Below are positions 14,515 through 41,931 of a stretch of DNA of 64,000 nucleotides, piece by piece. Every line of letters begins with the position of its first letter. Positions within the stretch are counted from its first letter, which is position 1. A program made the translations under genes and the position numbers. The stretch is from a virus: IMG/VR virus record IMGVR_UViG_3300010373_000004, positions 19,777-83,776 of that record; one strand, 5' to 3'. Under the pieces are notes generated by a model that saw only the letters and a list, made by a program, of their open reading frames with translations, was not told the origin of the DNA and made no database searches.

Positions 14515-15139
14515 CTTCTAGTGCCTCTATCTGTGCCAAACGATCTTCTGGATTGTTGGCCTGGTGGAATTTAGCTGTTACTTGTTGTTGTGAAGCTGTT
14601 ATAGATTCTAAATTAGCTTCACCTGGGCGAATCGCCTCAAATGGATTCGTTTTATCTGGAAGGATTCCTACTGACTGCATGTGCTTTAACTTCTTTTCCC
14701 TGATCTCGGCTCTACCTTTAATAGCCGATAGCTTGACAGCCGAACCCTTCCCTGCTTCCTCTATGAAATCCGTAAGTGCTTTTAAGTCCTCATCATACCC
14801 AAATACACCAGCACCAACTAAATGGTCTGGATTCATGTGGCGAACTGATAATTTTGTGGTTAATAATTCACCAATTGAACGTTCGTCATACTTGGGAAAG
14901 CGATTACATAGCTGGCGGACTGATGCTCCGGCTACATATAGCTCAACAATCTTATTTTCTATCTTTTCAAGTTCTACTGCATATTCTTCTTCGGGAGTCA
15001 TAACTTGAAGATGTGTTTCTTGTTGAGCCTCTAAAGGATCATCAATGTCATCTGCCTCTTGTAATAGGGCTTCCAGGTCATTTTCGGAGGACATACTGGC
15101 AGAATACCTGATTTTGTTGACAATTGCAAGAGGGTACAT
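14492..15139 (-). CDS. terS: Putative terminase small subunit
   Basis: HTH-like (IVELYVAGASVRQLC) plus helical oligomerisation region; first gene of the packaging operon; start may be MSSEND. Confidence 0.55.
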   Translation of the reverse strand: MYPLAIVNKIRYSASMSSENDLEALLQEADDIDDPLEAQQETHLQVMTPEEEYAVELEKIENKIVELYVAGASVRQLCNRFPKYDERSIGELLTTKLSVRHMNPDHLVGAGVFGYDEDLKALTDFIEEAGKGSAVKLSAIKGRAEIREKKLKHMQSVGILPDKTNPFEAIRPGEANLESITASQQQVTAKFHQANNPEDRLAQIEALEGEFNVQD

Positions 15140-15165
15140 ATACTGATTGCTCCGCGCCGCCAGGT

Positions 15166-16451: not shown

Positions 16452-16493
16452 GAACAGTCGAAACAGGGAGTGTCTGAGCAGACTTACTGATAC

Positions 16494-16541
16494 GCCGAAA
16501 CGTGCCCTCCCATCGGCAACGGTGGGAGGGTTTCGGCATTT
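16494..16541 (+). terminator. Stable hairpin / putative terminator
   Basis: gccgaaa..ccctccca-tcg-gcaa-cgg-tgggaggg-tttcggc followed by attt. Confidence 0.55.
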
Positions 16542-16922
16542 CTGAGACATGAAAGACCTGGAAATACTTTACTTTCTAAAGTATCAATGCCGGCACGGTC
16601 TGAATACCCTACCAGGGTATCCTATGACTGATGCCCTCGTTTCATGCATGGGAAGCACCATAAGCGAGAGCTATCATTCCTGCCATTTTGAGGGCCATAC
16701 AGGCGATTTTCGGCGACGTCCGATAACTGATGCGTTGAGGGCTAGAATCGCCCGTAGAATCGGCTCAAATCAGGTTTGTATTATTGTCAAGTGGAGCACG
16801 GCGGTCGCCTGGCCAGAAAAGCGACCGGCCTTCATAAATAACATCAATGTTTTGGATTGTGTTATCTATGTGGGCGCTCTAGTCCTAGTCCACTAAAATC
16901 AAAAACAGAAAGGGAAGTCCTA

Positions 16923-17156
16923 ATGTCACTCGATCAACAATTGGCCGCATTCAGAACAGACTGGAGCAATGTCAATCGCAAATTGTCATTTGCGCAAAGG
17001 GATGGCCGTAAGTCTAAGACGGCTGAATTGTCCTTGCGAAAGACAATCATCGAGAACATGATCGAAAAGATTAATCTCGATATCAACAAGTGCATCGCAT
17101 CTAGCGACCACTCCAAAGCTTTCTGCAACAATTGCGGGATGCAGGTCGAACGATGA
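16923..17156 (+). CDS. Hypothetical early protein
   Basis: AAGGGA RBS, ATGA overlap with the next gene. Confidence 0.6.
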   Translation: MSLDQQLAAFRTDWSNVNRKLSFAQRDGRKSKTAELSLRKTIIENMIEKINLDINKCIASSDHSKAFCNNCGMQVER

Positions 17157-17335
17157 TCAAAATCAACGTCAAAGAAGTCACAAGCATAGGTGTTTCCCAC
17201 AACATCATCACCGTCACTGAACAACAAGCCATTGTTTTAATCAAAGCTTTGGTCGATGTGATGACTGGTGGTGAGAATATGATGGGCTCTCATCTGCCTG
17301 GACGCGATTTCGAGGTTTCAGTAGAGCGCAAATAA
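17153..17335 (+). CDS. Hypothetical early protein
   Basis: Coupled ORF ending immediately before the hammerhead. Confidence 0.55.
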   Translation: MIKINVKEVTSIGVSHNIITVTEQQAIVLIKALVDVMTGGENMMGSHLPGRDFEVSVERK

Positions 17336-17336
17336 C

Positions 17337-17408
17337 GTCGAAATTACTGGTGGTAAATAGCCGCCAGTAATATAGTGGATTGACATTCCACTACTGATGA
17401 GACTGTCA
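17337..17408 (+). ncRNA. Type II hammerhead ribozyme with stem-I-loop pseudoknot
   Basis: gtc-GAAA-stem III (ttactggtgg/ccgccagtaa)-UA cleavage after 17372-stem I (tagtgga/tccacta)-CUGAUGA-gac; loop tgaca pairs with 3' tgtca. Confidence 0.92.
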
Positions 17409-17430
17409 CAATTTAGCAGAAAGGACAATC

Positions 17431-18753
17431 ATGGCAGGTAGAAAGTGCGCTGAATGCGGTGGGCCGGGTCATAACTCGGCTACTTGCGGACAGTATGCAC
17501 ATTACAAATGTCCAGAATGTGGGCTTACATTTAGTAAATGGCCCGCTCCTAGGTGGCGCGCAGAGGCGTACTGCAAAGGTGACGAAGTAAATCCACACAA
17601 TGAAACAGAGGTTGTGGAATTCGACGGCCGCCCAACACCGAGCGCACGACCTACTAGCAATAGTGGATTCGACCTTGATAAATTAGTCGAGCAAATATCC
17701 ACTGCTGTAGTCGCCGCCAGTGGTTTGTCAAATGTTGAATATGACAAGCTACATAACTGGATCAAAGAAGAAGCGGATTCAAGACTGGAAGCGTATGATA
17801 CGCAGCATATCCAGCTTGTTAATGAACTGCGAGAGTTTACAAACACTCTCAATGATCTCCGCAACAAAGTAGCGGCTACACAAACTCACACCCACACTTT
17901 GCAACTGGCAGAGAATAAGGGTGAGTATAAGTTCGCTACTAATGAGGCGCCCTCTGCAATCTTGCAGGATTTGGTGAAGTATTACAAGATTCGCCAGCTT
18001 GCGATGATTTGGGGACCGTCGGGCAGTGGTAAATCATTCGCCGTCGAACAAGCCTACAAAGTAATTAAGGCTCAGTTCGGATTCAGTGATGATGAATTCA
18101 TCTTTGTACCACTGTCAATGACTCTTGGCATTAATGAGGCTGACCTTTATGGTCGCATGTTGCCGGATGGCTCATTTGTTGAGTCTAAGCTTTGTGTGGC
18201 CTATGAGAAAGGTGGGCTGGTGCTGTGGGATGAAATGGACGGTGCCGACCAAAACTTGTTACTTGTCATTAATAGGATTGTGGAGTATGACGATTTCTAC
18301 AACCCAAAGAACGGCAAGACTTACAAGAGACACAAAAACTTCCATTCATTTGCTGCAACCAACACAAACGGTCGTGGACCGACAGCAGCATACAATAGCC
18401 GCAATCGGCTAGATATGGCAACACTTACACGGTTCAACCAAGCTGTGTATCTCTCTTACAATGAAGATGTGGAGAGGGCCATTCTTTCCGATGAAACATT
18501 GCTGAATGTGGCATGGAAGATCAGAGAATATCTGATGAATAACAATGCACAGGAAGTAATGTCAACCCGACATATCCGGGATATCGCTAAAGGTCTGGCA
18601 GAATTCGATGCTAAGACTCTTTTTGAACGCATGATTTCTACGTGGGCTCCTAATCTGCGCGAGGGCATCGTGCGCCTGCCAGAGTGGGGATATCTCGCTG
18701 CATATAAGGCTAATGTAAATCTGGATTTTCTCTATGAAGAAGTCGAGAACTAG
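17431..18753 (+). CDS. MoxR/CobS-type AAA+ ATPase with N-terminal zinc fingers
   Basis: GPSGSGKS, LWDEMD, AATNT.G.G, RNRLDMATLTRF, MSTR; N-terminal CAECG..GH..TC and CPECG. Confidence 0.88.
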   Translation: MAGRKCAECGGPGHNSATCGQYAHYKCPECGLTFSKWPAPRWRAEAYCKGDEVNPHNETEVVEFDGRPTPSARPTSNSGFDLDKLVEQISTAVVAASGLSNVEYDKLHNWIKEEADSRLEAYDTQHIQLVNELREFTNTLNDLRNKVAATQTHTHTLQLAENKGEYKFATNEAPSAILQDLVKYYKIRQLAMIWGPSGSGKSFAVEQAYKVIKAQFGFSDDEFIFVPLSMTLGINEADLYGRMLPDGSFVESKLCVAYEKGGLVLWDEMDGADQNLLLVINRIVEYDDFYNPKNGKTYKRHKNFHSFAATNTNGRGPTAAYNSRNRLDMATLTRFNQAVYLSYNEDVERAILSDETLLNVAWKIREYLMNNNAQEVMSTRHIRDIAKGLAEFDAKTLFERMISTWAPNLREGIVRLPEWGYLAAYKANVNLDFLYEEVEN

Positions 18754-18994
18754 ATTTACCTGCCTCGATTGTGGCGTGGACACAAGCAGGATCGGGGAGT
18801 ATTATATGCTCTCCGATTCTACTTGGAGTCTAATACACAATAGCAATAAAGGCATGTTGTGTATTGGCTGCGCTGAAAATCGTTTAGGTCGCAAGCTGGT
18901 AGCATCCGACTTCCATGTTTGTACTCTCAACGATTTTCACCATAGCTGTTATATGCGTTCACAAAGATTAGTTGATAGGATGACTAATGGCTGA
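18734..18994 (+). CDS. Cys-rich phage protein
   Basis: CLDCG.DT...EYYM....W....LCIGC.E.RLGRKL pattern, common in phages. Confidence 0.65.
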   Translation: MKKSRTRFTCLDCGVDTSRIGEYYMLSDSTWSLIHNSNKGMLCIGCAENRLGRKLVASDFHVCTLNDFHHSCYMRSQRLVDRMTNG

Positions 18995-19832
18995 TTTTGA
19001 ATACGAACACACTCTCGAAGAAATAAAAGAGTGGGTTCGGAGCGATGATTTGCGGACGGCTATCAAATTAGATAGCAATAAGCGGAACATGGATTCAAAT
19101 GTCATACGGCCTAATGATCCATCATTCTATGGTGCATCATATAAAGAGTCCGTAAGACAGTTATTCGACGGTGTTGATAACTTCAATGATTGGTTGTCTA
19201 GTTCACCGCCGATGGACATTCCCACAAAATCAATCCGGCGCCGTCGTGTTTATAGCGATAGTTCTGGTGAGATTGATATGGACCGCCGATGGGATGATTA
19301 TCCTTTTGAAACATTCCATCATGTGCGCTTTGATAATCCGATTGTCAAGGTCTACATTAATGGTGGTTTTAGAGGGATGGTTCACCAACGCCATATAAAT
19401 GCGTATGGAATGAAGATTTATTCCATCATCAACGCATTAGAGACTGCGGGTAAGATGTGTGAGATTTATCTCTACTACAATACCCTCGGGATTACTGGTG
19501 GAAATGAACTCACATTCACAACAGTGAAGATTAAAGGTTCTGATGAATACGTGGACGGCAAAGTATTAGCTACATGTTTCACCAGTTTCTTCTATCGTCG
19601 TTTCATATTTGCTCTACGTATTAAGGATGCGGACAGCCGCAACGAAACAGCATCGTGGGGCATGGGTTCGTCACAACTTTATAAGCACACTCTTTTACAA
19701 ATATCAGAGGCAGGAGATACTATTTGGTTGGAGGCCACCGACCCGGCTAATTTTGATGGGTCCACATACACAAAGGCAGTCGATGAAATCCTAGAAAAGG
19801 TTATCAAAGGAAGGGACGAGATAAGCGAATGA
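18987..19832 (+). CDS. Putative vWA-like partner of the AAA+ ATPase
   Basis: GEIDMDR, I.ALE.AG...EI, FYRRFIF and WGMG motifs typical of phage CobT-like partners; adjacent to the AAA gene. Confidence 0.6.
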   Translation: MADFEYEHTLEEIKEWVRSDDLRTAIKLDSNKRNMDSNVIRPNDPSFYGASYKESVRQLFDGVDNFNDWLSSSPPMDIPTKSIRRRRVYSDSSGEIDMDRRWDDYPFETFHHVRFDNPIVKVYINGGFRGMVHQRHINAYGMKIYSIINALETAGKMCEIYLYYNTLGITGGNELTFTTVKIKGSDEYVDGKVLATCFTSFFYRRFIFALRIKDADSRNETASWGMGSSQLYKHTLLQISEAGDTIWLEATDPANFDGSTYTKAVDEILEKVIKGRDEISE

Positions 19833-20086
19833 AGGCAGTCACTATAACTGTTGCTTTCACAGCAACTGTGCCTGACGATGTGGAAACCGGGTATTTAGCT
19901 GTTGATTTAGATGTTGACAGAATAAAGCTTGTCAATCATCGGTTTAATTCTTTGTCTAGTGCTAATTGCATTAGTCATTTATCTCTGGAACCGTATCTAA
20001 TAGTCGAAACATATCTTGACAGCTATGTTAAGATATGTCTGTGGGAGTCGCCTACCTACACTGATGATGACAGGCGAGAAAGATAA
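19829..20086 (+). CDS. Hypothetical protein
   Basis: ATGA overlap with the upstream gene. Confidence 0.5.
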   Translation: MKAVTITVAFTATVPDDVETGYLAVDLDVDRIKLVNHRFNSLSSANCISHLSLEPYLIVETYLDSYVKICLWESPTYTDDDRRER

Positions 20087-20406: not shown

Positions 20407-20653
20407 ACAAATGCCACGTAAGAACGGACCCACTCATAAGAGGAACGAACGCAAGTATAAGAATAAGAGTCGCCCAGCTTGTCCTGGTGGAAGTTGTGGC
20501 TCTCTTACATGCACTGTTTGTCGATCACCTTGGAACAATCGTAGTTCCAATAAGTAGACGCAGATGGGACTGGAGAGAAATCTCCAGTTTAATGCGGCAG
20601 TTCCGAATTCCAAAGCACGGAACAAATAACAACCGCAGAAGAAAGGAACAGTA

Positions 20654-21451
20654 ATGTTCTCAAACCTTCCTAAGACTCAAAAGACCGCGCAGGAGCAAGT
20701 GCTGGATGCTATGGCAGTCAGTCGTTTTGTTTTCCATCTGACAGGTTCTCGCTTTTTCGGAACTAATCGTGAGGACAGCGATTACGATTTCTTTGTCGAG
20801 GATGATCATTATTCGCCTTTCGTTGGAAATGTTCGCTCATGGCTCATAAGTGAGGCTTTCTATTTGATGGATAAGAGTGATTATCTGTCAACTGTTCAGG
20901 GCATCAATGATGTTTACCAGCATGTTAGTGCGAACATTCAGGTCCAGGTTGTTCAGGATGCTACTAAGAAGCAGCGCATTCAAGACGGGATCAAGAACAG
21001 TCCTGAATGCATGAACGTCATTAAGCAGTGTGACAAGTCTCGCAATAAGGGTTTGTGGGAAGCTCTTTACATCATGGATGCTTTCAAGCCTGCTCCAAAG
21101 ACTCCCGTAAACAAGATTCTCATGATCAAGAATGTTCGTGAGTTGTCTGGATGCGGATTGAAGGAGGCCAAGGATTTCGTTGAGGGAGTTTTGATTCCCA
21201 ATTTCAATGGAACGCCTGCAACAATGGAAGTAAACGCAACAAAGAGCGTTGTTCCTGTTGTGAATTCTTCTCCACTTCCAGTTATCGCATGTGGTCGTTG
21301 CGGACTGTCACTAACGCGGTTCGCCTGTTATCGACAAGATTACCGAAACAATAAGCCGCTGTGCTTTAATTGCTGGATTAATGAACGGACATATGTTGAT
21401 CCGATCTTTGTTTCAGACTGGATAAGCACACGCAACACAACCACCGTTTAG
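20654..21451 (+). CDS. Pol-beta-family nucleotidyltransferase fused to a ribosomal L7/L12 C-terminal-like domain and a zinc finger
   Basis: LTGSRFFG....SDYDF NTase motif; NKILMIKNVRELSGCGLKEAKDFVEG matches the bL12 CTD signature; CGRC...CFNC. Confidence 0.8.
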   Translation: MFSNLPKTQKTAQEQVLDAMAVSRFVFHLTGSRFFGTNREDSDYDFFVEDDHYSPFVGNVRSWLISEAFYLMDKSDYLSTVQGINDVYQHVSANIQVQVVQDATKKQRIQDGIKNSPECMNVIKQCDKSRNKGLWEALYIMDAFKPAPKTPVNKILMIKNVRELSGCGLKEAKDFVEGVLIPNFNGTPATMEVNATKSVVPVVNSSPLPVIACGRCGLSLTRFACYRQDYRNNKPLCFNCWINERTYVDPIFVSDWISTRNTTTV

Positions 21452-21524
21452 CAGAGTGGGCCGAGAGTTTAATCTCTCGGTTTAATGCGGTAAGGTCGTC
21501 ACAAGCCCGACCTAAATACAAACG
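21445..21524 (+). ncRNA. Twister ribozyme, type P5
   Basis: cgttt-AGCAGAGUGG-P1(gccgagag/ctctcggt)-U^AAUGCGGU-P4(aggtc/gacct) with UCACAAGC loop-aaacg; predicted cleavage 21483/21484. Confidence 0.88.
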
Positions 21525-30271: not shown

Positions 30272-30348
30272 TTGGGGATTAAGATCAGTCAGGTAGATGG
30301 CTCGGCCTGGAACCGAGAGGTCGCGAGTTCGAATCTCGCATCCCCAAC
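30272..30348 (+). tRNA. tRNA-Pro(UGG)
   Basis: Cloverleaf; ctcgg-CC TGG AA-ccgag; GTTCGAATC. Confidence 0.9.
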
Positions 30349-30516
30349 AACTACTTCTATTTTAGAATAAAGAGAAAGATAATGAAGCGATTTGAATTGA
30401 CTGGATGGAAGGGAGCTATTGCATCTTGGTATGTGATTTTGTCCCTTGTTTTTGGAGTTGCTACAGAAGTTTATGTAGTTGCAACTCATGCTGTTCCAGC
30501 AGCAAATGCAGTTCAT

Positions 30517-30591
30517 AGCCTAGTGGCCAAGCGGTAAGGCAGGAGACTGTTAATCTTCTATGCGTAGGTTCGAATCCTACCTGGGCTGCCA
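30517..30591 (+). tRNA. tRNA-Asn(GUU), CCA encoded
   Basis: agcctag/ctgggct; CT GTT AA. Confidence 0.93.
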
Positions 30592-30593
30592 AT

Positions 30594-30668
30594 CCTCTGT
30601 TAGTCGAACGGTTTAAGATACCGCCCTGTCAAGGCGTGTGATTACGGGTTCAAATCCCGTACAGAGGG
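30594..30668 (+). tRNA. tRNA-Asp(GUC)
   Basis: cctctgt/acagagg; CT GTC AA. Confidence 0.88.
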
Positions 30669-30723
30669 CTGTCGTTAAACTTTAAGATTTGTGGAAGTTC
30701 ATCGTTATAAACAAATCACTGAT

Positions 30724-30794
30724 GGCGCATTCATCTAATGGCAGGATAAGTGACTTTCAATCATTTCGCAGGGGTTCGATCCCCCTATGCGCTA
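30724..30794 (+). tRNA. tRNA-Glu(UUC)
   Basis: ggcgcat/atgcgct; CT TTC AA. Confidence 0.9.
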
Positions 30795-30804
30795 CTCCGA
30801 ACCG

Positions 30805-30885
30805 CCGGTCTAGAACGGTCATAGTGTATGGTATTGCACGTTAGCTGCGCGAGCTAAAAGTAGAGTTCGAATCTCTTGGAACGGA
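30805..30885 (+). pseudogene. Aberrant tRNA-like element
   Basis: D arm, ttagc-TGCGCGA-gctaa arm and agag-TTCGAAT-ctct arm present; acceptor stem irregular. Confidence 0.55.
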
Positions 30886-30890
30886 AACAT

Positions 30891-30961
30891 GCCCTGATAG
30901 TTAAATGGTATAACAGTAGTCTTGTAAACTTCTGTTCTCAGTTCGATTCTGAGTCGGGGCT
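30891..30961 (+). tRNA. tRNA-Thr(UGU)
   Basis: gccctga/tcggggc; CT TGT AA. Confidence 0.9.
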
Positions 30962-31163
30962 CGATGTTAATAGTAACATTTCACAATCAAGGTATGGATA
31001 TAAACCTTCCACCAGATGAACAGTTTTGCGACTATAACGTAGAAGTTATGGTTACTACTAGTCCTACATCTGTAAAAACTATCTATAAAGGTAAAGTTAA
31101 GAAACACTATCGAAAAGATGGCTGGAAGAAATTGCTAGAGTTGGCAACAAAGCAACTCTGAAC

Positions 31164-31236
31164 GCTCCTGTGGTATAAAGGTCAATTATACTTGGTCTAC
31201 ACCCAAGTGATTCTAGTTCGAATCTAGACGGGAGTA
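31164..31236 (+). tRNA. tRNA-Val(UAC)
   Basis: gctcctg/cgggagt; cttgg-TC TAC AC-ccaag. Confidence 0.88.
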
Positions 31237-31301
31237 CAGTGACTCAGCCATCATGCACTTGATAATTTCTATCACAGTGGAACATTATAAGGATAACCAT
31301 A

Positions 31302-31386
31302 GGAAATATGCTGGAGTGGTTTAACAGGCACGCCTGCTAAGCGTGTGACCGTAACTGGTCCCTGAGTTCGAATCTCAGTATTTCCG
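31302..31386 (+). tRNA. tRNA-Ser(GCU)
   Basis: ggaaata/tatttcc; CT GCT AA; long variable arm. Confidence 0.93.
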
Positions 31387-31494
31387 CAGAGTCTTAGGGT
31401 TCGTGGTATAGAGGGCAGACTCTTTCAAAACACAGCATACTTACTGATAGTTTTAAGTTCGCGTGAGTTCTATCATTAAAAACTCTACGAAAAT

Positions 31495-31581
31495 GGAATT
31501 GTGGCCGAGTGGTTTAAGGCAATAGTCTTGAAAACTATCGACCGCGCGAGCGGTCCTAGGGTTCGAATCCCTACAATTCCT
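31495..31581 (+). tRNA. tRNA-Ser(UGA)
   Basis: ggaattg/caattcc; CT TGA AA; long variable arm. Confidence 0.93.
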
Positions 31582-31598
31582 CTTGACAAATAAGTCAT

Positions 31599-31669
31599 GT
31601 GGTGCTAAGATAATGGTAGTCCCGCAGTTTGTGACACTGCGCGTTCCCGTTCGAACCGGGAGCATCACT
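31599..31669 (+). tRNA. tRNA-His(GUG)
   Basis: gtggtgc/gcatcac; gcagt-TT GTG AC-actgc. Confidence 0.8.
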
Positions 31670-31686
31670 CTTTTAAGGTTTATTGA

Positions 31687-31935
31687 ATGTCTAACGCATG
31701 GGATTTAACAACATCTGGTGCCTTAACCAGATTTAATAGTAATGTGAATACAAAAAGCACTTATGGACCGTCAACAGCGAGTATCGGTCCCAACAGTCTC
31801 AGTGCTTCTGGATATGTTGATCCTACTATTGTAACAGCGAGTTTAGTTGAACCTTCTCAATATACTAGTCCGGCGGATAACGTCGCCAAAAAGTCATACC
31901 CCGGTTTCGAAATCGACGGAGTTAATTACATTTAG
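31687..31935 (+). CDS. Hypothetical protein in the tRNA cluster
   Basis: AAGG RBS; 82 aa. Confidence 0.55.
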   Translation: MSNAWDLTTSGALTRFNSNVNTKSTYGPSTASIGPNSLSASGYVDPTIVTASLVEPSQYTSPADNVAKKSYPGFEIDGVNYI

Positions 31936-32138
31936 AAGTTGGTCGTATTGTTGGTCCGACCATCCTCTTGGTAAAGTTCATATAGCTTGGTCGGATGATA
32001 GAAGCATTGCTTGTAAGAATATTTATTTTGTTCCGCAACATTTTAGAGTTGGGGTTCTAGGATATCTTCCTATGGAAAAGCAAAAGAATCTTTGCAAGCA
32101 TTGCGCCAAGGCTCTTGAATTAGAAAGAAGGAATATGT

Positions 32139-32276
32139 ATGCCCCTTCAAACAGGCACTTCACAGAAAGCAATTAGTAGTAATATAGCGACAGAAGTCAA
32201 GGCAGGAAAGCCACAAAAGCAAGCTGTGGCAATTGCAATGAGTAAAGCTGGTAAGAGCACTTCTAAAAAGAAGTAA
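32139..32276 (+). CDS. Small basic phage protein (MPL..G.SQKAIS.NI...[15 protein letters not shown] family)
   Basis: 45 aa ORF below the ORF-track cutoff; AAGGA RBS; recognisable widespread phage peptide pattern. Confidence 0.75.
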
Positions 32277-32286
32277 CTTACCTCAT

Positions 32287-32357
32287 GCGCCTGTGATTAA
32301 ATGGTATAATGGGTGCCTTCCAAGCATCATTTGAGAGTTCGATTCTCTCCAGACGCA
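32287..32357 (+). tRNA. tRNA-Gly(UCC)
   Basis: gcgcctg/cagacgc; CT TCC AA. Confidence 0.9.
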
Positions 32358-32461
32358 CAATGGTTTACTAGTGACAAACAACGCTTTGCAATGATTAGGA
32401 ACTAGTCGTCTAAGTAGCCTGTGAGTCGCGCATAAAGACGTTAATTGTGGAGACTCTTAAA

Positions 32462-32544
32462 GCCGCTGTGGTGGAACAGTAGACACGCTTGCCTTAGAAG
32501 CAAGTATTCTTATGAATGTACGAGTGCGAATCTTGTCAGCGGTA
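32462..32544 (+). tRNA. tRNA-Leu(UAG)
   Basis: gccgctg/cagcggt; CT TAG AA; T-loop TGCGAAT. Confidence 0.88.
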
Positions 32545-32545
32545 C

Positions 32546-32818
32546 ATGAGAACTATTAAAGATTCTGAGAGAGATAGAAGGAACGCTGATCTTAAAAGAA
32601 ATGTAGTTGATGCTTTTAAACTAGCTAAAGGTTGCATTGATTGTGGGTACAAGGAAAATGCAGCAGCACTAGAATTTGATCACTTACCAGGCTTTAGGAA
32701 AAATGCTACAGTAGCTTCTCTAATGTATAGAAGTCTTAAAGTAATTGTTGAAGAAATAAAGAAATGTGAAGTTGTATGCGCTAATTGTCATGCAATAAGA
32801 ACGTATAATAGACGATAA
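32546..32818 (+). CDS. HNH endonuclease
   Basis: CIDCG...LEFDH...EEIKKCEVVCANCH. Confidence 0.85.
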   Translation: MRTIKDSERDRRNADLKRNVVDAFKLAKGCIDCGYKENAAALEFDHLPGFRKNATVASLMYRSLKVIVEEIKKCEVVCANCHAIRTYNRR

Positions 32819-32819
32819 T

Positions 32820-32902
32820 GCTTCCTTGGTGGAACGGTAGACACCCTGGACTTAAAATCCAGTGTTCGAAAGGACGTGTCGGTTCGAATCCGACAGGAAG
32901 TA
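32820..32902 (+). tRNA. tRNA-Leu(UAA)
   Basis: gcttcct/aggaagt; CT TAA AA. Confidence 0.93.
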
Positions 32903-32932
32903 CGGGTTTAATAAACCTAAATTAAAATTATA

Positions 32933-33154
32933 ATGGAGGCCCATGTAGTGGCTAAGTTATGTTCAAGCAACCTAGAAAGTTGCGAATTTGATTCCGAAAC
33001 TGGAGTCTTAGTAATAGATTTTGTTGCAGGTTCTACTTATAAGTATAAGAATGTTCCTGCTAACATTTATCACGGCTTATTAGCTGCTGAGTCTCATGGA
33101 AAATTCTTCCATGAAAATATTAGGGATAAGTTCCCTTATCATAGAGTAGCTTAG
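32933..33154 (+). CDS. KTSC domain protein
   Basis: SSNL...FD...L.I.F..G.TYKY.NVP..IY.GLL.AES.GKFF..NIR. Confidence 0.9.
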   Translation: MEAHVVAKLCSSNLESCEFDSETGVLVIDFVAGSTYKYKNVPANIYHGLLAAESHGKFFHENIRDKFPYHRVA

Positions 33155-33166
33155 TCTACTCTTAGT

Positions 33167-33240
33167 GCTTCAATAGCCAAGTGATCTAAGGCGCTTGTCT
33201 GCAAAACAAGTATTCGTCGGTTTGAATCCGACTTGAAGCT
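33167..33240 (+). tRNA. tRNA-Cys(GCA)
   Basis: gcttcaa/ttgaagc; CT GCA AA. Confidence 0.9.
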
Positions 33241-33314
33241 CATTGGTTTGTTAGTTTTCCAAAAGACACATAGTCTCTTTGTGATTTACACGGTCTAGAA
33301 AAACTAACACAAAT

Positions 33315-33387
33315 GCCTCATTGGTCTAATGGACAGGGCGGCAGCCTTCTAAGCTGTTCGGTACAGGTTCGAATCCTGTATGAGGTA
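33315..33387 (+). tRNA. tRNA-Arg(UCU)
   Basis: gcctcat/atgaggt; CT TCT AA. Confidence 0.92.
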
Positions 33388-33417
33388 TATTAGCTAATCA
33401 AGGACTCAATTAGGTCA

Positions 33418-33807
33418 ATGAACAGCAATGAGCAAAAAGCTTTGCAATTAGGAATGCCTTTTGGTACAGCCTGTAATAGATTAAGAAAAAATATACTTTT
33501 TAAACTTCTAGTAGATTTTAAATTAAATGTATGTTTTCATTGTAATAGAGATATTACTAATGTAGACGAACTGAGTATTGAACACAAACAACCTTGGTTT
33601 AAAACAAATGCTGATTTATTTTGGGATTTAGATAATATAGCATTTAGTCACTACTCATGTAATTCAGGTGCTGCAAATCATGACAATCAGAGAATACTTA
33701 AAACCCATTGTATAAATGGGCATGAATATACAGAAGCAAATACGTCTAGGGTACTAATTCGCGGTAAAGTAACTCGTCGATGTAAAAAGTGTTTAAGTAA
33801 TCGTTAA
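33418..33807 (+). CDS. HNH endonuclease with C-terminal KTHC.NGH zinc finger
   Basis: CFHC...SIEHKQPW...NIAFSHYSCN; KTHCINGHEY...RCKKC. Confidence 0.85.
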   Translation: MNSNEQKALQLGMPFGTACNRLRKNILFKLLVDFKLNVCFHCNRDITNVDELSIEHKQPWFKTNADLFWDLDNIAFSHYSCNSGAANHDNQRILKTHCINGHEYTEANTSRVLIRGKVTRRCKKCLSNR

Positions 33808-33822
33808 ATTATCGTATGACAC

Positions 33823-34050
33823 ATGACAGAAAAGCAATTTAAAGATAATAGTATTGTCTGGTGGAGTTGGGTCTTTCTTTGGTTAATACTGGAAGGATTG
33901 GGATTCTCACGGAAAACTCCGTGGGCGCCACTTACTGAGTATGTTTGGGCCATCGAAGATAGAAATCACTTGGCGCAGTACGGTTTCTTAGTTCTATTTG
34001 CGGCTCTGTTAGTCCACTTTGTCGGTAGGTGGACTGGACACAACGATTAA
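33823..34050 (+). CDS. Small membrane protein
   Basis: Two hydrophobic Trp-rich segments. Confidence 0.6.
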   Translation: MTEKQFKDNSIVWWSWVFLWLILEGLGFSRKTPWAPLTEYVWAIEDRNHLAQYGFLVLFAALLVHFVGRWTGHND

Positions 34051-34052
34051 AT

Positions 34053-34126
34053 GGTCCTGTGGTGTACGGGTGCGTGCATAAGTGTCTTATAAACACCAGG
34101 TTCTAGTTCGACTCTAGGCAGGACTA
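34053..34126 (+). tRNA. tRNA-Ile(UAU)
   Basis: ggtcctg/caggact; CT TAT AA. Confidence 0.85.
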
Positions 34127-34131
34127 CGTAT

Positions 34132-34204
34132 GCTCCGATAGCTCAGATGGTAGAGCGCATGTCTGAAAAACATGAGGTCGTCGGATCGATACCGACTCGG
34201 AGCA
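34132..34204 (+). tRNA. tRNA-Phe(GAA)
   Basis: gctccga/tcggagc; CT GAA AA; T-loop ATCGATA. Confidence 0.9.
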
Positions 34205-34210
34205 CTTATT

Positions 34211-34282
34211 GCTCGCTTACGCTAATGGTTGGCGACAGTTCTGATAAAGCTGTGTGAGGTAGTCCGATTCTACCAGCGAGTA
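34211..34282 (+). tRNA. tRNA-Ile(GAU)
   Basis: gctcgct/agcgagt; CT GAT AA; T-loop TCCGATT. Confidence 0.85.
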
Positions 34283-34299
34283 CAAAGCTAAAATAGCAC

Positions 34300-34328
34300 T
34301 TGACATCGTTCCTCCAGTATGGTATTAT
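34300..34328 (+). promoter_or_regulatory. Sigma70-type promoter inside the tRNA cluster
   Basis: TTGACA-17-TATTAT with TG. Confidence 0.72.
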
Positions 34329-34342
34329 AGATAGGTCGTTGA

Positions 34343-34414
34343 GCGCCTCTGACGTAACGGTAGCGTAGCGGACTTTTAATCCGACAAGTAAGAGTTCGAA
34401 TCTCTTGGGGCGTA
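34343..34414 (+). tRNA. tRNA-Lys(UUU)
   Basis: gcgcctc/ggggcgt; CT TTT AA. Confidence 0.9.
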
Positions 34415-34423
34415 CAAAAAGAA

Positions 34424-34657
34424 ATGCTAAAAACAAAAGAAGCAGTAAAAAGAACAGCTACCTTCAAAGCTTTTGAAATTGAAGGTCTTTGGTATCGTGA
34501 AACCTGTAATTTCTGTGGTAAGGAAATAGATCACTTCTATAAATTAGAGTTTGACGATACATATCCAATAAAGGAAAATCAGGATGGTCCTAATAGACCA
34601 TACATTTATCTTTGTTTGGAACATTACGAACGGTTAACACATGCTCCAGTAGCATAA
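34424..34657 (+). CDS. Cys-rich hypothetical protein
   Basis: CNFCG...LCLEH; 3' end overlaps tRNA-Arg(UCG). Confidence 0.55.
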   Translation: MLKTKEAVKRTATFKAFEIEGLWYRETCNFCGKEIDHFYKLEFDDTYPIKENQDGPNRPYIYLCLEHYERLTHAPVA

Positions 34658-34715
34658 TGGAAAGTGTCTCTGCCTTCGAAGCAGGTGGGTACGGGTTCGA
34701 ATCCTGTCTGGAGTA
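34643..34715 (+). tRNA. tRNA-Arg(UCG)
   Basis: gctccag/ctggagt; CT TCG AA. Confidence 0.9.
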
Positions 34716-34759
34716 CGCAAATGGTTACTCAATAGACTCTCGTTTGATGGAATTAGAAT

Positions 34760-34830
34760 GGGCCATTAAGTTAATGGGAAACTTCCTGCTTTGCACGCAG
34801 GGTTTGAGAGTTCGATTCTCTCATGGTCCA
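34760..34830 (+). tRNA. tRNA-Ala(UGC)
   Basis: gggccat/atggtcc with G3:U70; TT TGC AC. Confidence 0.9.
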
Positions 34831-34831
34831 C

Positions 34832-34904
34832 TGCGGGATAGTGTAATAGCAACATGCCAGCCTCATAAGCTGTGCGACTATGGGTGCAAATCCCATTTCC
34901 GCTA
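34832..34904 (+). tRNA. tRNA-Met(CAU), 1:72 mismatch (initiator-like)
   Basis: tgcggga/ttccgct; CT CAT AA; lacks the GGG:CCC anticodon stem. Confidence 0.85.
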
Positions 34905-35042
34905 CTGAGTTGTCAGAGTCTTTAAAACTGTCTGTCAGTTACCAATCTGACATTAATTAAAATTGGGTGCGCGAATAGAATTAACGAGGCGTCGCTACAC
35001 GCCTACACAGCGAGTAATGTCGGTGAGCTATTCCGGTAAAAT

Positions 35043-35113
35043 TGCCGAGTGTTGTAATGGTAGCAAAAGTGACTTTGAATCATTTAGTCTGGGTTCGAAA
35101 CCTAGCTCGGCAG
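35043..35113 (+). tRNA. tRNA-Gln(UUG)
   Basis: tgccgag/ctcggca; CT TTG AA. Confidence 0.9.
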
Positions 35114-35283
35114 CTACACAGTAGTCGAATAATAGACAGCCTGACAAAGGTAAATGTGCAAGAATGAGAGAATCTTGCCTGTGGTAGGAAGCCAGTAATC
35201 CTTATTCCAAACTGGTTGTACATAAATGAATTGGTGCCTTAACCTTTAGGTAAAAGCTTAATGTCTAGAACGCCAATTCTTAT

Positions 35284-35356
35284 TACCGAATGGTGTAATA
35301 GGTAACACAACTGTCTCTGAAACAGTAGAGTAGTGGTTCGAAGCCACTTTCGGTAG
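35284..35356 (+). tRNA. tRNA-Gln(CUG)
   Basis: taccgaa/ttcggta; CT CTG AA. Confidence 0.9.
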
Positions 35357-35420
35357 CCGCGCCCTCAAACATGCCAAACAGTTCACTAGCTCTGTATAAA
35401 AAGCTAGTTTTATTTTGTCT

Positions 35421-36422
35421 ATGAGTTTATCACTTCTTTCTTTTAATAATCAAGTAGCTTCCGGCGCTGTAGTTAACGCCGTTAAGCTTGCACGACCTAG
35501 AGCCATACTTGTTATGGACGTAAATAATAAGCCGTATCTTGAAGATTTGCGTGCAGCTAATCCTAATATGTGGGTCATTGCGCGTAATTATCAATTTGAC
35601 GGAAACTATGATGGTCCAGCAGCGTATCAAACTGGACAGCAACATGGTGAAGCAGCACTAAATATTGAAGCAAATGGATTTAAGTTTGATCGCTGGACGA
35701 GTATAAATGAGCCAATATCTGATTGGGAACCTAATTGGTCTTGGTATGATAGTTATGCTGCTGGGTTTTATGATACTGTGGGTGACAGGGCGTTGGCGTT
35801 CAATACTGCAACGGGTAACTTTCCTAAAGTATCGTCTCCTGGACAATTTGTAGAGGATGACTTTGACCGTTTTACCCAAATTCAACAACGTTACCACAAA
35901 TTTGCATTTCATGCCTACGGTCATCCTAGATTTGATGCCAATTCGGTTCCCTGGTGGATCGGTCGTTACCAGCATTTTATTCATGATCCGCTGGCGGAGA
36001 TTCACCTTACTGAGGTCGGATATCATACGGTTAGTGGCAATCCCACTCCAGATAAGGGTTACAAATACGACGGTGTAACCGAAGATGATTACTGGAACCA
36101 AATGGTTTGGCTTGATGATTTTCATATCGCCGATCCTAGGGTTGAGGATTTATGTGTGTTTATCGTTGGAGGGAACTCTGGCTGGTCATCTTTTGAAATA
36201 CTAGGAACATCAATCATTCAGCGACTTGCTGACAGGAATAATGAATTGGATCAAACAATTGGGCAGCAGTTGGCTGCATTTCAAACACAATTTCAAACAC
36301 AAAATGATATGTTAGGTCATGGTCTGTCTGATTTTGTAAAGGCTAATCCTAGTCTAGAAACACAAGAGCTAAAGACATGGTTGAAGGCAATGTCACCAGA
36401 TGCTCCGTGGGCGCAATTTTAA
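35421..36422 (+). CDS. Clan-A TIM-barrel glycoside hydrolase
   Basis: INEP acid/base, FHAYG, LTEVGY nucleophile, aromatic-rich. Confidence 0.75.
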   Translation: MSLSLLSFNNQVASGAVVNAVKLARPRAILVMDVNNKPYLEDLRAANPNMWVIARNYQFDGNYDGPAAYQTGQQHGEAALNIEANGFKFDRWTSINEPISDWEPNWSWYDSYAAGFYDTVGDRALAFNTATGNFPKVSSPGQFVEDDFDRFTQIQQRYHKFAFHAYGHPRFDANSVPWWIGRYQHFIHDPLAEIHLTEVGYHTVSGNPTPDKGYKYDGVTEDDYWNQMVWLDDFHIADPRVEDLCVFIVGGNSGWSSFEILGTSIIQRLADRNNELDQTIGQQLAAFQTQFQTQNDMLGHGLSDFVKANPSLETQELKTWLKAMSPDAPWAQF

Positions 36423-36677
36423 ATGCTACCTGAGAATGAAAGAGAGCAGATAAAACGAGCAGTCATAGGGTTTGCTGTTGATTTAACTAGAGCACTTCAA
36501 GAGTTTAAGTTTAGTTCTATGGCTTCTGATGAAGCTGAGGCTGTTTGGAATCTTATTGGTGCAACTTCAAATAATTACCTAGAAGTCATCGCTAGACCTA
36601 AGAAGCAAATCCATGCCAGCAAGCAAACGAAGTCTGCTGGTGAAACATTAAATACAAATACAGTAGTGACAGAATAA
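36423..36677 (+). CDS. Hypothetical protein
   Basis: Tightly coupled ORF. Confidence 0.55.
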   Translation: MLPENEREQIKRAVIGFAVDLTRALQEFKFSSMASDEAEAVWNLIGATSNNYLEVIARPKKQIHASKQTKSAGETLNTNTVVTE

Positions 36678-37163
36678 ATGAAAGTATACGTAGCTGGCTC
36701 ATGGGATGCCAGACAAACATGCAGAGAAATCGCTAACCATGTAGCTAGCAAAGGACACGTTGTTCTTTCTAACTGGTTGTATTGGGAACCACCAGAGGAC
36801 GTTCTTGCTAATTCTAAGAAGCTTAATATGCTTATTAAGAAGATGGACTGCGACGGCGTTAGAAATGCTGATGCAATTATCGTCTTTACAGAAGTACCTT
36901 CAACTAAGCATGGTTTCTATTTTGAAACAGGAATGGCGGAAGGCTGGAACGCTCTAGTTCGTTACATGGGTAGCCAGATGGCGAATCTAGAGAAAATCAT
37001 CTATATGATAGGTAAGCAGCCAGAAGATTTGTGTGCTTTCTTGGCAGGCTATAGAACCTATCCAACGCTGGACGATTTCTATCATCATTGGCCTAAGATG
37101 GGTGATTCCAATGAGATTGATCTGACAGCTATTACTCCACTTATTGGTCCTAGTGATAACTAG
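36678..37163 (+). CDS. Nucleoside 2-deoxyribosyltransferase-like protein
   Basis: KVYVAG, D..GV..ADAII, G..FETGMA. Confidence 0.8.
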   Translation: MKVYVAGSWDARQTCREIANHVASKGHVVLSNWLYWEPPEDVLANSKKLNMLIKKMDCDGVRNADAIIVFTEVPSTKHGFYFETGMAEGWNALVRYMGSQMANLEKIIYMIGKQPEDLCAFLAGYRTYPTLDDFYHHWPKMGDSNEIDLTAITPLIGPSDN

Positions 37164-37170
37164 GACTTTA

Positions 37171-37242
37171 CCCGACAAGATGTTAAGGCGGCATACACGA
37201 CTCTTAATCGTAGAAGTGAGGGTTCGAATCCCTCTGTCGGGA
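37171..37242 (+). tRNA. tRNA-Lys(CUU)
   Basis: cccgaca/tgtcggg; CT CTT AA. Confidence 0.85.
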
Positions 37243-37469
37243 CGATATTATGGCTAATAAAAGAATATCACATGACTGGACTGGACAACTTGGTGGTGTT
37301 TTCAAGTGTTCAGTTTGCAGAACAACATTAACAGATAAAACACTAAACAGTGGTTGTCAAGGTACACGGCATCGGAGTGATAATGAACATGTTTCATTTG
37401 GAGAGCCGTTAAGAAATATAGGACAGATAATGCAAGCCTTGTCTCCAGAAACAGTAAAAGCACTTAAAA

Positions 37470-38357: not shown

Positions 38358-38543
38358 TTCAGTTGTAGCTTGGGATAAAGACTCAATGGCTACATTAAAT
38401 AGAATTGTTGGTAATTTGGAGAACAAACTGTCATCACTAAAGAGACTTCGCCTCCAGTGTCATGAACAAACTCCTGATGTTAAGAAACCTGTCGTTGATC
38501 TAAACGACATACTAAAAGAAATACTAATGAGAGATATAACTTA

Positions 38544-39473: not shown

Positions 39474-39817
39474 AAGAAGGTTTTGGAGCAGTAGCAACAT
39501 TTTTAGTTGTCGCTGTATTTCTAACAGCATTAGGTATAGGAGGTGTGTTCCTGTGGGCTAAGATGGAACGTCCACTGAATGATATTCATAGACAGGCAAC
39601 AGAATGTAGTCTTGAATATGTAAATAGTACACAGGCAACACTACAAGCACAGATTACGCAGTATAACGGATTTGGACCCGATACTACTGAGGGACAGAAG
39701 CGAGCACTTATTAGTCAGATGCACGCTGAAATCAATGTAATTGATACTTGTAGTGACAATAACAATCCTGTTCCTCCAGCAATCCGGTCGTTTATTAACG
39801 CCCATCCAGTTAATTAA
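39470..39817 (+). CDS. Membrane-anchored protein
   Basis: N-terminal TM helix. Confidence 0.65.
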   Translation: MKEGFGAVATFLVVAVFLTALGIGGVFLWAKMERPLNDIHRQATECSLEYVNSTQATLQAQITQYNGFGPDTTEGQKRALISQMHAEINVIDTCSDNNNPVPPAIRSFINAHPVN

Positions 39818-39833
39818 CAAAAGATAAAGAGAT

Positions 39834-41115: not shown

Positions 41116-41122
41116 CACTATT

Positions 41123-41193
41123 AGGGGCTTAGGCTAGAGGTAAACTGAGGGTCTCCAAAACCCAAGTCGAGAGTTCGATTCTCTCAGCCCCTG
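41123..41193 (+). tRNA. tRNA-Trp(CCA)
   Basis: aggggct/agcccct; CT CCA AA. Confidence 0.9.
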
Positions 41194-41904: not shown

Positions 41905-41927
41905 GAGTTCGAATCTCTCAGAGAGTA
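41846..41927 (+). tRNA. tRNA-Leu(CAA)
   Basis: gctctct/agagagt; TT CAA AA; long variable arm. Confidence 0.9.
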
Positions 41928-41931
41928 CAAT

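What the first reader, a model, noticed from the sequence alone, without database searches (positions are those of the whole stretch)
17337..17408. Complete type II hammerhead ribozyme upstream of the AAA+ ATPase
Seen: all core nucleotides (CUGAUGA, GAAA, UH = AUA triplet), a 10-bp stem III, a 7-bp stem I, a 3-bp stem II and a 5-bp pseudoknot (tgaca 17381-85 with tgtca 17404-08). It starts 1 nt after a stop codon and ends just before the AAA gene RBS. Predicted cleavage after 17372 gives the downstream mRNA a 5'-OH end.
Basis: partly seen in the sequence, partly recalled or inferred. Interest (0 to 1): 0.8.

Follow-up and report, generated by a model that had tools for sequence, protein, structure and literature searches.

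The report
Type II hammerhead ribozyme in phage
A soil phage carries a complete self-cutting hammerhead RNA between two genes, a well-known kind of element that most likely cuts a long phage message into separate pieces, so it is real but ordinary.

Summary
Positions 17337-17408 (+) carry the full hammerhead core, a stem III of 11-12 bp, a 7-bp stem I, a 3-bp open stem II and a 5-bp loop I/3'-tail pseudoknot. H17 is A17372.

Rfam Hammerhead_II (RF02276) gives no hit at gathering or at E<=10. That model is narrow: it saw 11 of 35 descriptor-valid viral type II hammerheads, and none with H17=A or U15.2.

Other tests are positive:
- A structural descriptor finds this one site in the 83.8-kb genome, with 0 strict hits in 200 shuffles.
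- Three covariance models built from other viral hammerheads hit only 17337-17413 and a second hammerhead at 20003-20081.
- A sub-family sharing its loop I covaries in all four helices, pseudoknot included.

It belongs to a cluster with two twister-P5 candidates. The likely role is cutting a polycistronic phage transcript, as proposed in 2011 (PMC3088659). That role is inferred; cleavage was not tested.

It is a new member of a known kind. The scan had noted this same stretch before (e1-6131981).

The parts
17132..17335 (+). upstream ORF (67 aa, no family hit); its TAA stop at 17333-35 lies 1 nt before the ribozyme
17337..17339 (+). stem II 3' strand GUC (11.3-11.1), pairs with 17401-03
   Evidence: covaries in relatives
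17340..17342 (+). core G12 A13 A14
17343..17371 (+). stem III hairpin from A15.1 to U16.1; 12 bp in the MFE fold, loop AAAUA
17372..17372 (+). H17 = A; predicted scission between 17372 and 17373
   Evidence: position rule of the hammerhead, applied; not tested experimentally
17373..17393 (+). stem I hairpin, 7 bp, loop UUGACAU 17380-86
17394..17400 (+). core C3 U4 G5 A6 U7 G8 A9
17401..17403 (+). stem II 5' strand GAC (10.1-10.3)
17404..17408 (+). 3' tail UGUCA, pseudoknot partner of loop I UGACA 17381-85
   Evidence: pair 68-91 covaries: G-C in 15 rows, A-U in 2
17421..17433 (+). AAGGA ribosome-binding site and ATG of the downstream gene
17431..17753 (+). start of the AAA_5 / CobS-like ATPase gene; the full gene is 17431-18753
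20003..20081 (+). second type II hammerhead: extra U between A9 and G10.1, 6-bp pseudoknot, predicted scission 20039/20040
20559..20620 (+). twister-P5 candidate just below the Rfam cut-off (37.1 bits against 37.6)
21450..21510 (+). twister-P5 ribozyme, 39.7 bits (cut-off 37.6)

Best explanation
Positions 17337-17408 encode a type II hammerhead self-cleaving ribozyme of the pseudoknotted class common in phages. Once transcribed as part of a long + strand message, stems III and I form and the 3-bp stem II closes the three-way junction. The loop I / 3'-tail pseudoknot holds stems I and II parallel. The RNA then cuts itself between A17372 and U17373. The upstream fragment ends in the 12-bp stem III hairpin with a 2',3'-cyclic phosphate. 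The downstream fragment starts with a 5'-OH directly on the stem I hairpin and carries a 58-nt leader, the ribosome-binding site and the CobS-like AAA ATPase gene. A second hammerhead (20003-20081) and two twister candidates (20559, 21450) would cut the same transcript further into sub-operon mRNAs with structured, non-phosphorylated ends, which should change their stability or translation. Shown here: the sequence anatomy, its statistical significance, family membership by independent models, and covariation. Inferred: that it cleaves, that the transcript is polycistronic, and what cleavage achieves.
For: The anatomy is complete, with no mispair next to the core. It is the only descriptor hit in the genome, and 0 of 200 shuffles give a strict hit. 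The MFE fold and the 171-nt context fold both keep stems III and I. Model R1 (14 viral hammerheads) scores it 35.6 bits, E 5.5e-7. Model R2 (150 sequences) scores it 42.3 bits, E 1e-10, and finds only 2 hits in the genome. Model R3 was built from 25 hammerheads that my search pattern did not select; it scores 34.7 bits, E 7.9e-8. A pattern for its loop I found 18 matches in 16 viral loci, and all 18 parse as full type II hammerheads. In the 18-row alignment 98.1% of cells pair, against 76.1% in shuffles and 26-42% when partners are slid. Eleven of 20 pairs change on both sides. As a class feature, 82 of 105 viral sites have a pseudoknot of 5 bp or more, against a mean of 18% with permuted tails. 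On context, in 48 of 63 viral sites with an open upstream frame the stop lies -1 to +3 nt from the ribozyme start, as it does here. Passages of PMC3088659 describe the same class, the same pseudoknot and the same clustered phage context. Three type II hammerheads cleave in vivo in D. vulgaris (PMC8782182, passages).
Against: Rfam RF02276 and all other Rfam hammerhead models give no hit, even at E<=10 in an 86-nt slice. No orthologous locus could be examined. The only close relative of the AAA protein (P0003, 63% identity) has no DNA available to me. No RNA run is listed, so there is no direct evidence of transcription or cleavage. R1 and R2 were trained on sequences found with a pattern taken from this site's own core and stem II, which inflates their scores; R3 addresses this. 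The AUA cleavage triplet is rarer than GUC-type triplets: H17=A in 16 of 163 sites and U15.2 in 6 of 163. It may cleave more slowly (recalled, not tested). The context fold pairs part of the GUCGAA core with upstream coding sequence. The promoter and terminator scans are not above chance.
Confidence: 0.87

Rival explanations
1. It is a real hammerhead fold that is slow or conditional. Cleavage would be gated by translation termination 1 nt upstream, or by the competing helix with upstream coding sequence. The element would then work as a regulated switch, not as a constitutive cutter.
For: The stop codon lies 1 nt before the ribozyme, so a terminating ribosome would cover GUC-GAAA and the start of stem III (inference). 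This tight spacing is the rule in the class, 48 of 63. The context fold shows UUCGA/UCGAA pairing that sequesters the core. AUA is a minority triplet. PMC3088659 raises regulated cleavage for phage hammerheads.
Against: Tight spacing is equally explained by genome compaction. The competing helix is only 5 bp and appears in a prediction with ensemble frequency 0.002. The pseudoknot is a hallmark of fast ribozymes (PMC3088659).
Confidence: 0.08
2. The two hammerheads define an RNA cassette (17373-20039, 2,667 nt) whose 5'-OH and 2',3'-cyclic phosphate ends are healed and sealed by the phage's own PNKP and RNA ligase. The result would be a circular or re-joined RNA.
For: The phage encodes PNKP (kinase plus HAD phosphatase, E 1e-43), an RNA ligase and RlaP. 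Hammerhead products carry exactly the ends these enzymes act on (established chemistry).
Against: The repair genes sit inside a block of 25 tRNA genes, which fits tRNA repair better. PMC3088659 reports looking for spliced or circular products of clustered phage hammerheads and finding none. No data here bear on it.
Confidence: 0.04
3. It is a chance or decayed hammerhead-like motif without activity. The conserved hairpins would serve only as mRNA-stabilising or terminator structures.
For: No Rfam hit. A hammerhead-like remnant lacking G8 and A9 exists nearby at 16457-16494, so decay does occur in this genome.
Against: All core positions are intact. There were 0 strict hits in 200 shuffles. Three models give E of 1e-7 to 1e-10. 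The pseudoknot covaries with relatives. Stem III is not followed by a U tract.
Confidence: 0.02

Closest known systems
Pseudoknotted type II hammerhead ribozymes of bacteria and phages (Perreault et al. 2011, PMC3088659; Rfam RF02276)
   Same: Same core, same permutation (stems I and III capped, stem II open and only 3 bp), and the same pseudoknot between loop I and the nucleotides right after stem II. Same setting between phage genes, in a cluster with other ribozymes.
   Different: It is AU-rich (GC 0.42 against a median of 0.58), has an AUA cleavage triplet with U15.2-A16.2, and a 12-bp stem III (3 of 163 viral sites are that long). These features put it below any reportable score of the Rfam model.
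GGAUUGNCAUUCC loop-I sub-family of viral type II hammerheads (found here)
   Same: Identical apical stem I and loop I. The loop N and the tail base covary: G with C in 15 rows, A with U here and in L124. L124 also shares the tail UGUCACAAU.
   Different: No shared flanking proteins apart from one weak hit in L129, so the likeness is in the ribozyme alone. Stem III here is longer and AU-rich.
Second hammerhead of the same phage (20003-20081)
   Same: Type II, 3-bp GUC/GAC stem II, pseudoknot straight after stem II, same strand, 2.7 kb downstream.
   Different: It has an extra U between A9 and G10.1, H17 = C, a 6-bp pseudoknot and a different loop I. It overlaps the 3' end of ORF 19829..20086.
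Twister-P5 ribozymes (Rfam RF02684) in the same gene block
   Same: Self-cleaving RNAs placed at stop codons on the same strand, giving the same end chemistry.
   Different: Unrelated fold and catalytic core.

Membership tests
Hammerhead ribozyme | Conserved core C3 U4 G5 A6 N7 G8 A9, G12 A13 A14, and H17 not G | tested here: met
   CUGAUGA 17394-17400, GAA 17340-42, A17372
Hammerhead ribozyme | Three helices around the core with no mispair next to it (10.1-11.1, 1.1-2.1, A15.1-U16.1); acceptance rule quoted from PMC3088659 methods | tested here: met
   G17401-C17339, U17373-A17393, A17343-U17371. Stems of 3, 7 and 12 bp.
Hammerhead ribozyme, type II | Stems I and III closed by loops, stem II open | tested here: met
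   Order GUC-GAA-[hairpin III]-A-[hairpin I]-CUGAUGA-GAC
Hammerhead ribozyme, type II | Pseudoknot of 4 bp or more between loop I and the nucleotides immediately 3' of stem II (a majority feature, PMC3088659) | tested here: met
   5 bp, 17381-85 with 17404-08, starting at offset 0. It covaries with relatives.
Hammerhead ribozyme, type II | Match to the Rfam RF02276 covariance model at its gathering score. This is a detection tool, not a defining feature. | tested here: not met
   No hit at gathering or at E<=10. In a control the model saw 11 of 35 valid viral sites, and none with H17=A or U15.2.
Hammerhead ribozyme, type II | Match to covariance models built from other natural type II hammerheads | tested here: met
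   R1 35.6 bits, R2 42.3 bits, R3 34.7 bits. Each gave only two hits in the window.
Hammerhead ribozyme, type II | Helices supported by compensatory changes among relatives | tested here: met
   11 of 20 pairs change on both sides; 98.1% of cells pair against 76.1% in shuffles. Caveat: rows were chosen by a pattern that fixes 21 columns.
Hammerhead ribozyme | Mg2+-dependent self-cleavage 3' of H17, giving 2',3'-cyclic phosphate and 5'-OH | not testable with these tools
   No RNA run is listed for this DNA. Needs a bench assay.

The most novel reading that the evidence does not exclude
The four ribozymes and the phage's own PNKP, RNA ligase and RlaP could form one system. The ribozymes would cut the early transcript into segments with 5'-OH and 2',3'-cyclic phosphate ends. 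The phage repair enzymes would then re-phosphorylate, circularise or re-join chosen segments. The end chemistry of mRNAs would become a programmed, host-independent control of their lifetime. The near-universal placement of these ribozymes -1 to +3 nt after a stop codon (48 of 63) would let the terminating ribosome time the cut.
Probability: 0.05. Interest if true: 0.75.

Novelty: new member of a known kind. Interest (0 to 1): 0.27.

Why it matters
As biology it adds one more example to a class described in 2011, whose role in phages is still only inferred. Two side results are of practical use. First, the curated Rfam model misses about two thirds of structurally valid viral type II hammerheads in my control (24 of 35). 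It misses all AU-rich, H17=A and U15.2 variants among them, so phage ribozyme counts based on Rfam are probably low. Second, these ribozymes start almost exactly at the upstream stop codon. That is a testable clue to how cleavage and translation termination relate. The phage also offers four ribozymes next to an RNA-repair module, a compact setting to test what ribozyme-made mRNA ends are for.

Tried and rejected
Rfam. I ran the gathering scan of the window, E<=10 scans of 251-nt and 86-nt slices and RF02276 on the whole genome. None gave a hammerhead hit. I do not take this as refutation, for the reasons shown.

Orthologous loci.
- blastn of 17000-18800 against GenBank phages found no match.
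- The search for related loci in viral contigs found no relative with P0001, alignment A1 or alignment A2.
- The search for related loci in metagenome contigs with A2 found none.
- The search for homologous proteins gave one relative, P0003, at 63% identity.
- tblastn against GenBank phages gave 856 records, all below 60% identity and none covering 80% of the query. The best were Acinetobacter phages at 31%. These are too distant for an orthologous intergenic comparison, and I did not follow them.

Expression. No RNA holder is listed. Laying runs X1 and X2 showed X1 identical over the whole stretch; it may be the source of this DNA. X2 covered only 17818-18063 and 19404-19646. Nothing bears on the ribozyme.

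Shared flanking genes. tblastn of window ORFs against the hammerhead loci found CobS-like homologues at 30-31% in L021, L097, L053 and L051. In none of them is the hammerhead directly upstream of that gene. I make no claim of a conserved gene-ribozyme link.

Region 16452-16548. It reads GUC-GAA-ACA..UGU-C-UGAG..CUUA-CUGAUAC, so G8 and A9 are missing. It has no hit with R1-R3 or with Rfam at E<=1. I reject it as an active hammerhead.

Promoter and terminator scan. Counts were at chance level. I use only the 11-of-12 promoter-like site at 15117-15144, and only as a hint.

Rows dropped.
- A5 uses 25 of the 29 pattern-independent sites. Left out: L047:6309-6396, L055:12246-12318 and L107:1523-1603 (long inserts), and L120:808-872 (already in A3).
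- A7 uses 17 of the 18 sub-family matches plus the window. L133 was left out because it is identical to L123.
- searched 100 of the 120 loci then held.
- One search tested 10 of the 120 loci.

Supplements of the papers were not opened. The alignments in Dataset S1 of PMC3088659 may already hold close relatives of this sequence.

Full report
WHAT IS THERE. The window is bases 19777-83776 of an 83,776-bp viral record with direct terminal repeats. By the listing of runs that hold it, it comes from soil.

The stretch 17337-17408 reads, 5' to 3':
- GUC (17337-39)
- GAA (17340-42)
- a hairpin from A17343 to U17371
- A17372
- a hairpin UAGUGGA-UUGACAU-UCCACUA (17373-93)
- CUGAUGA (17394-17400)
- GAC (17401-03)
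- UGUCA (17404-08)

This is the order of a type II hammerhead, and each piece has its expected role:
- Core and cleavage site: G12 A13 A14, the A15.1-U16.1 pair, H17 = A, and C3 to A9.
- Stems: the stem II 3' strand comes first, stem III and stem I are both capped, and the stem II 5' strand comes last, with G10.1 paired to C11.1.
- Tail: it is complementary to UGACA (17381-85) in loop I.

The TAA of ORF 17132..17335 ends 1 nt before the ribozyme. AAGGA (17421-25) and the ATG (17431) of the AAA gene follow 12 nt after the pseudoknot.

IS IT MORE THAN CHANCE. I wrote a structural descriptor: CUGANGA, GAA, A15.1-U16.1, H not G, and perfect stems. It finds exactly this site and no other on either strand of the whole genome.
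- In 200 dinucleotide-preserving shuffles of the genome, the loose version (I>=4, III>=3, II>=2) hit 22 times in 21 shuffles.
- A strict version (I>=6, III>=6, II>=3), which this site passes easily, hit 0 times.
- The 77-nt RNA folds at -27.7 kcal/mol into exactly stems III and I, with z = -4.75; 0 of 200 shuffles fold as well.
- The same two stems persist in a 171-nt context.
- The reverse strand also folds (z = -3.64), as any hairpin pair must, but it has no core.

THE RFAM TEST FAILS, AND WHY. It gives nothing. There was no hit at gathering, none at E<=10 in a 251-nt or an 86-nt slice, and none in a whole-genome search with RF02276, where one candidate was scored and rejected. No other Rfam hammerhead family hit either.

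To see what that means I needed other type II hammerheads. Many contigs had several copies.

My strict descriptor finds 163 sites in 107 of these 120 loci. Their features:
- Stem II has 3 bp in 99 sites.
- H17 is C in 143, A in 16 and U in 4.
- Position 15.2 is C in 152 and U in 6.
- Stem III is 5-12 bp; only 3 sites have 12 bp.

I ran Rfam at gathering on 10 of these loci. It reported 12 Hammerhead_II hits at 38-49 bits, against a cut-off of 37. Eleven of them overlap the 35 strict sites in those loci. None of the 9 sites with H17=A was seen, and none of the 3 with U15.2. The printed Rfam consensus is GC-rich (…GAAACgccC…GggcGUC…). This site has GC 0.42 against a median of 0.58, U15.2-A16.2 and H17=A. 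So the Rfam miss reflects a narrow model. It is not evidence against the fold.

INDEPENDENT MODELS. I built three covariance models from other viral hammerheads and searched the window with each.

| Model | Built from | Score at 17337-17413 | Score at 20003-20081 |
|---|---|---|---|
| R1 | 14 viral hammerheads of uniform geometry | 35.6 bits, E 5.5e-7 | 40.7 bits, E 2.8e-8 |
| R2 | 150 of the 157 matches of R1 in 100 loci | 42.3 bits, E 1e-10 | 50.0 bits, E 4.3e-13 |
| R3 | 25 pattern-independent hammerheads | 34.7 bits, E 7.9e-8 | 36.8 bits, E 2e-8 |

Each model found exactly these two matches in the window at E<=10. R2 found the same two, and only those, in the whole genome.

R1 and R2 were trained on sequences fetched with a pattern from this very site, so up to about 12 bits could be circular. 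R3 answers that. It uses 25 hammerheads from the same contigs that the pattern did not select, with other stem II sequences or other N7. E-values from these models are rough because calibration was shortened.

COVARIATION. A second pattern fixed only the apical stem I, loop I and the start of the core (GGATTGNCATTCC NNNN CTGATGAG). It matched 18 times in 16 viral loci, where about 0.1 match is my rough estimate for chance. All 18 parse as complete type II hammerheads with a 3-bp stem II.

I aligned 17 of them with this site and counted pairs for the proposed structure, pseudoknot included:
- 98.1% of 360 cells pair, against 76.1% in 500 shuffles (0 of 500 reach it) and 26-42% with partners slid by 1-3 columns.
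- 11 of 20 pairs change on both sides.
- Stem II shows U-A, A-U and G-C at its middle pair.
- The four outer stem I pairs and four stem III pairs each show 3-6 pair types.
- The variable loop position pairs with the tail as G-C in 15 rows and as A-U in 2, namely this site and L124. One row is shifted by a base.

Caveats: the structure was derived from this sequence, and the pattern fixes 21 columns. The tail, stem II, stem III and the outer stem I were free.

At the level of the whole class, 82 of 105 unique viral sites with a loop I of 6 nt or more have a loop-tail helix of 5 bp or more. With tails permuted among sites the mean is 18% and the maximum 27% over 200 permutations.

SURROUNDINGS. 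The block from about 15.4 to 23 kb is a run of small + strand genes. It lies downstream of a promoter-like TTGACA-16-TATACT at 15117-15144, and no terminator signal exceeds chance.

The downstream gene (17431-18753) has an AAA_5 domain and matches phrog_249, labelled "porphyrin biosynthesis", which I read as CobS-like. The next genes match phrog_6053 and DUF7192.

The second hammerhead (20003-20081) has H17 = C20039, an extra U between A9 and G10.1, and a 6-bp pseudoknot, UCGCCU 20048-53 with AGGCGA 20072-77. Rfam finds a twister-P5 at 21450-21510 (39.7 bits) and a second candidate at 20559-20620 (37.1 bits against a cut-off of 37.6). So four self-cleaving motifs lie within 4.2 kb on one strand.

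Three of the four sit at stop codons: stop at 17335 and ribozyme at 17337; stop at 20557 and ribozyme at 20559; stop at 21451 and ribozyme at 21450. The fourth is preceded by TAATAG, with the G shared.

This placement is typical of the class. Among the 163 viral sites, 63 have a same-strand frame that stays open through the 300 nt upstream and closes near the ribozyme. In 48 of these 63 the stop ends -1 to +3 nt from the ribozyme start. Flanking open frames are on the same strand about three times as often as on the opposite strand: 54 against 17 upstream and 36 against 13 downstream. Many flanks gave no call.

HOW IT MOST LIKELY WORKS. What follows is established hammerhead chemistry, not shown here. 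Scission 3' of H17 leaves a 2',3'-cyclic phosphate on the upstream RNA and a 5'-OH on the downstream RNA. Applied here, the upstream message would end 37 nt after its stop codon in a 12-bp hairpin with a 1-nt overhang. The AAA-gene message would begin with a 5'-OH directly on the stem I hairpin and carry a 58-nt leader.

From general knowledge of bacterial mRNA decay (recalled, not tested), 3' hairpins hinder 3' exonucleases. 5' hairpins and the lack of a 5' monophosphate hinder RNase E and RNase J entry. I therefore infer that the ribozyme uncouples the fates of the flanking messages and gives both protected ends.

With the second hammerhead, the 2,667-nt segment 17373-20039 would be released as one unit. 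It holds the AAA ATPase, the phrog_6053 protein, the DUF7192 protein and a small ORF.

[quoted passage not shown] The 2019 review PMC6765202 (passages) still calls the bacterial roles largely elusive. In vivo cleavage of three type II hammerheads near phage genes in D. vulgaris is reported in PMC8782182 (passages).

COMPARISON WITH WHAT IS KNOWN. The element meets every structural criterion of the pseudoknotted type II class of PMC3088659: the core, no mispair next to it, capped stems I and III, a short open stem II, and a pseudoknot of 4 bp or more starting right after stem II. It differs by its AU-rich make-up, its AUA triplet and its long stem III. These are variations seen in a minority of natural members. 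It is a new member of a known kind.

The phage also encodes PNKP, an RNA ligase and RlaP among its 25 tRNA genes. I confirmed the domains but have no evidence for the link, and tRNA repair is the simpler reading. I keep the idea as the low-probability novel case.

VERDICT. Interest is low to moderate. The useful by-products are the measured blind spot of the Rfam model and the tight stop-codon placement of this class.

RECALLED, FROM NO CALL. The numbering conventions. The report of natural hammerheads with an extra nucleotide between A9 and G10.1. The relative activity of cleavage triplets. The RNase E and RNase J end preferences. The T4 Pnk/Rnl tRNA-repair paradigm.

Noticed in passing
window 20003-20081 (+): A second type II hammerhead that my perfect-match descriptor missed, because an extra U sits between A9 and G10.1. 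Scores are 40.7, 50.0 and 36.8 bits with R1, R2 and R3. It has a 6-bp pseudoknot, and predicted scission is at 20039/20040. Rfam does not report it either.
   Followed up: partly
window 19829-20086 and 19929-20000 (+): ORF 19829..20086 (85 aa, ATGA overlap with the previous gene) reads straight through the second hammerhead, so cleavage would leave it without a stop codon. A 23-aa hydrophobic ORF (19929..20000) in another frame ends at the TAATAG that abuts the ribozyme. Which of the two is the real gene is unresolved.
   Followed up: no
window 20559-20620 and 21450-21510 (+): Two twister-P5 matches (37.1 bits, just under the 37.6 cut-off, and 39.7 bits). Each starts at a stop codon, and they bracket ORF 20654..21451, which has an L7/L12 C-terminal-like stretch. 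An earlier agent followed these up (e1-6131994).
   Followed up: partly
window 16457-16540 (+): Right after the stop at 16449-51 lies a hammerhead-like remnant (GUC GAA ACA..UGU C UGAG..CUUA CUGAUAC) that lacks G8 and A9. It is followed by a long GC-rich hairpin (GCCGAAAC...GUUUCGGC with an inner 11-bp stem). No model hits it. It may be a decayed ribozyme plus a terminator or stabiliser.
   Followed up: partly
loci L001-L120 (IMG/VR): Rfam RF02276 at its gathering score saw 11 of 35 descriptor-valid type II hammerheads in 10 viral loci. It saw none with H17=A or U15.2 and none of the short-loop-I, 4-bp-stem-II class (for example 0 of 9 in L045).
   Followed up: partly
loci L001-L120 (IMG/VR): In 48 of 63 viral type II hammerheads with an open upstream same-strand frame, the stop codon ends -1 to +3 nt from the first stem II nucleotide. 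In 16 cases the stop shares its last base with the ribozyme.
   Followed up: partly
window 30274-42002 and 37470-41115 (+): There are 25 tRNA genes by Rfam. Interleaved with them are PNKP (kinase plus HAD phosphatase), an RNA ligase, an RlaP-family nucleotidyltransferase, a dGTP diphosphohydrolase-like protein and a dual-specificity phosphatase.
   Followed up: partly
loci L021, L051, L053, L097: Four of the 120 hammerhead-bearing viral loci also encode a CobS-like AAA ATPase 30-31% identical to the window's. L021 also has the DUF7192 neighbour. The hammerheads lie 0.5-2.7 kb away, not directly upstream.
   Followed up: no
window 17308-17342 (+): In the 171-nt context fold, UUCGA of the upstream coding region pairs with UCGAA of the ribozyme core. 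This is a possible competing helix that translation of the upstream ORF would open.
   Followed up: no
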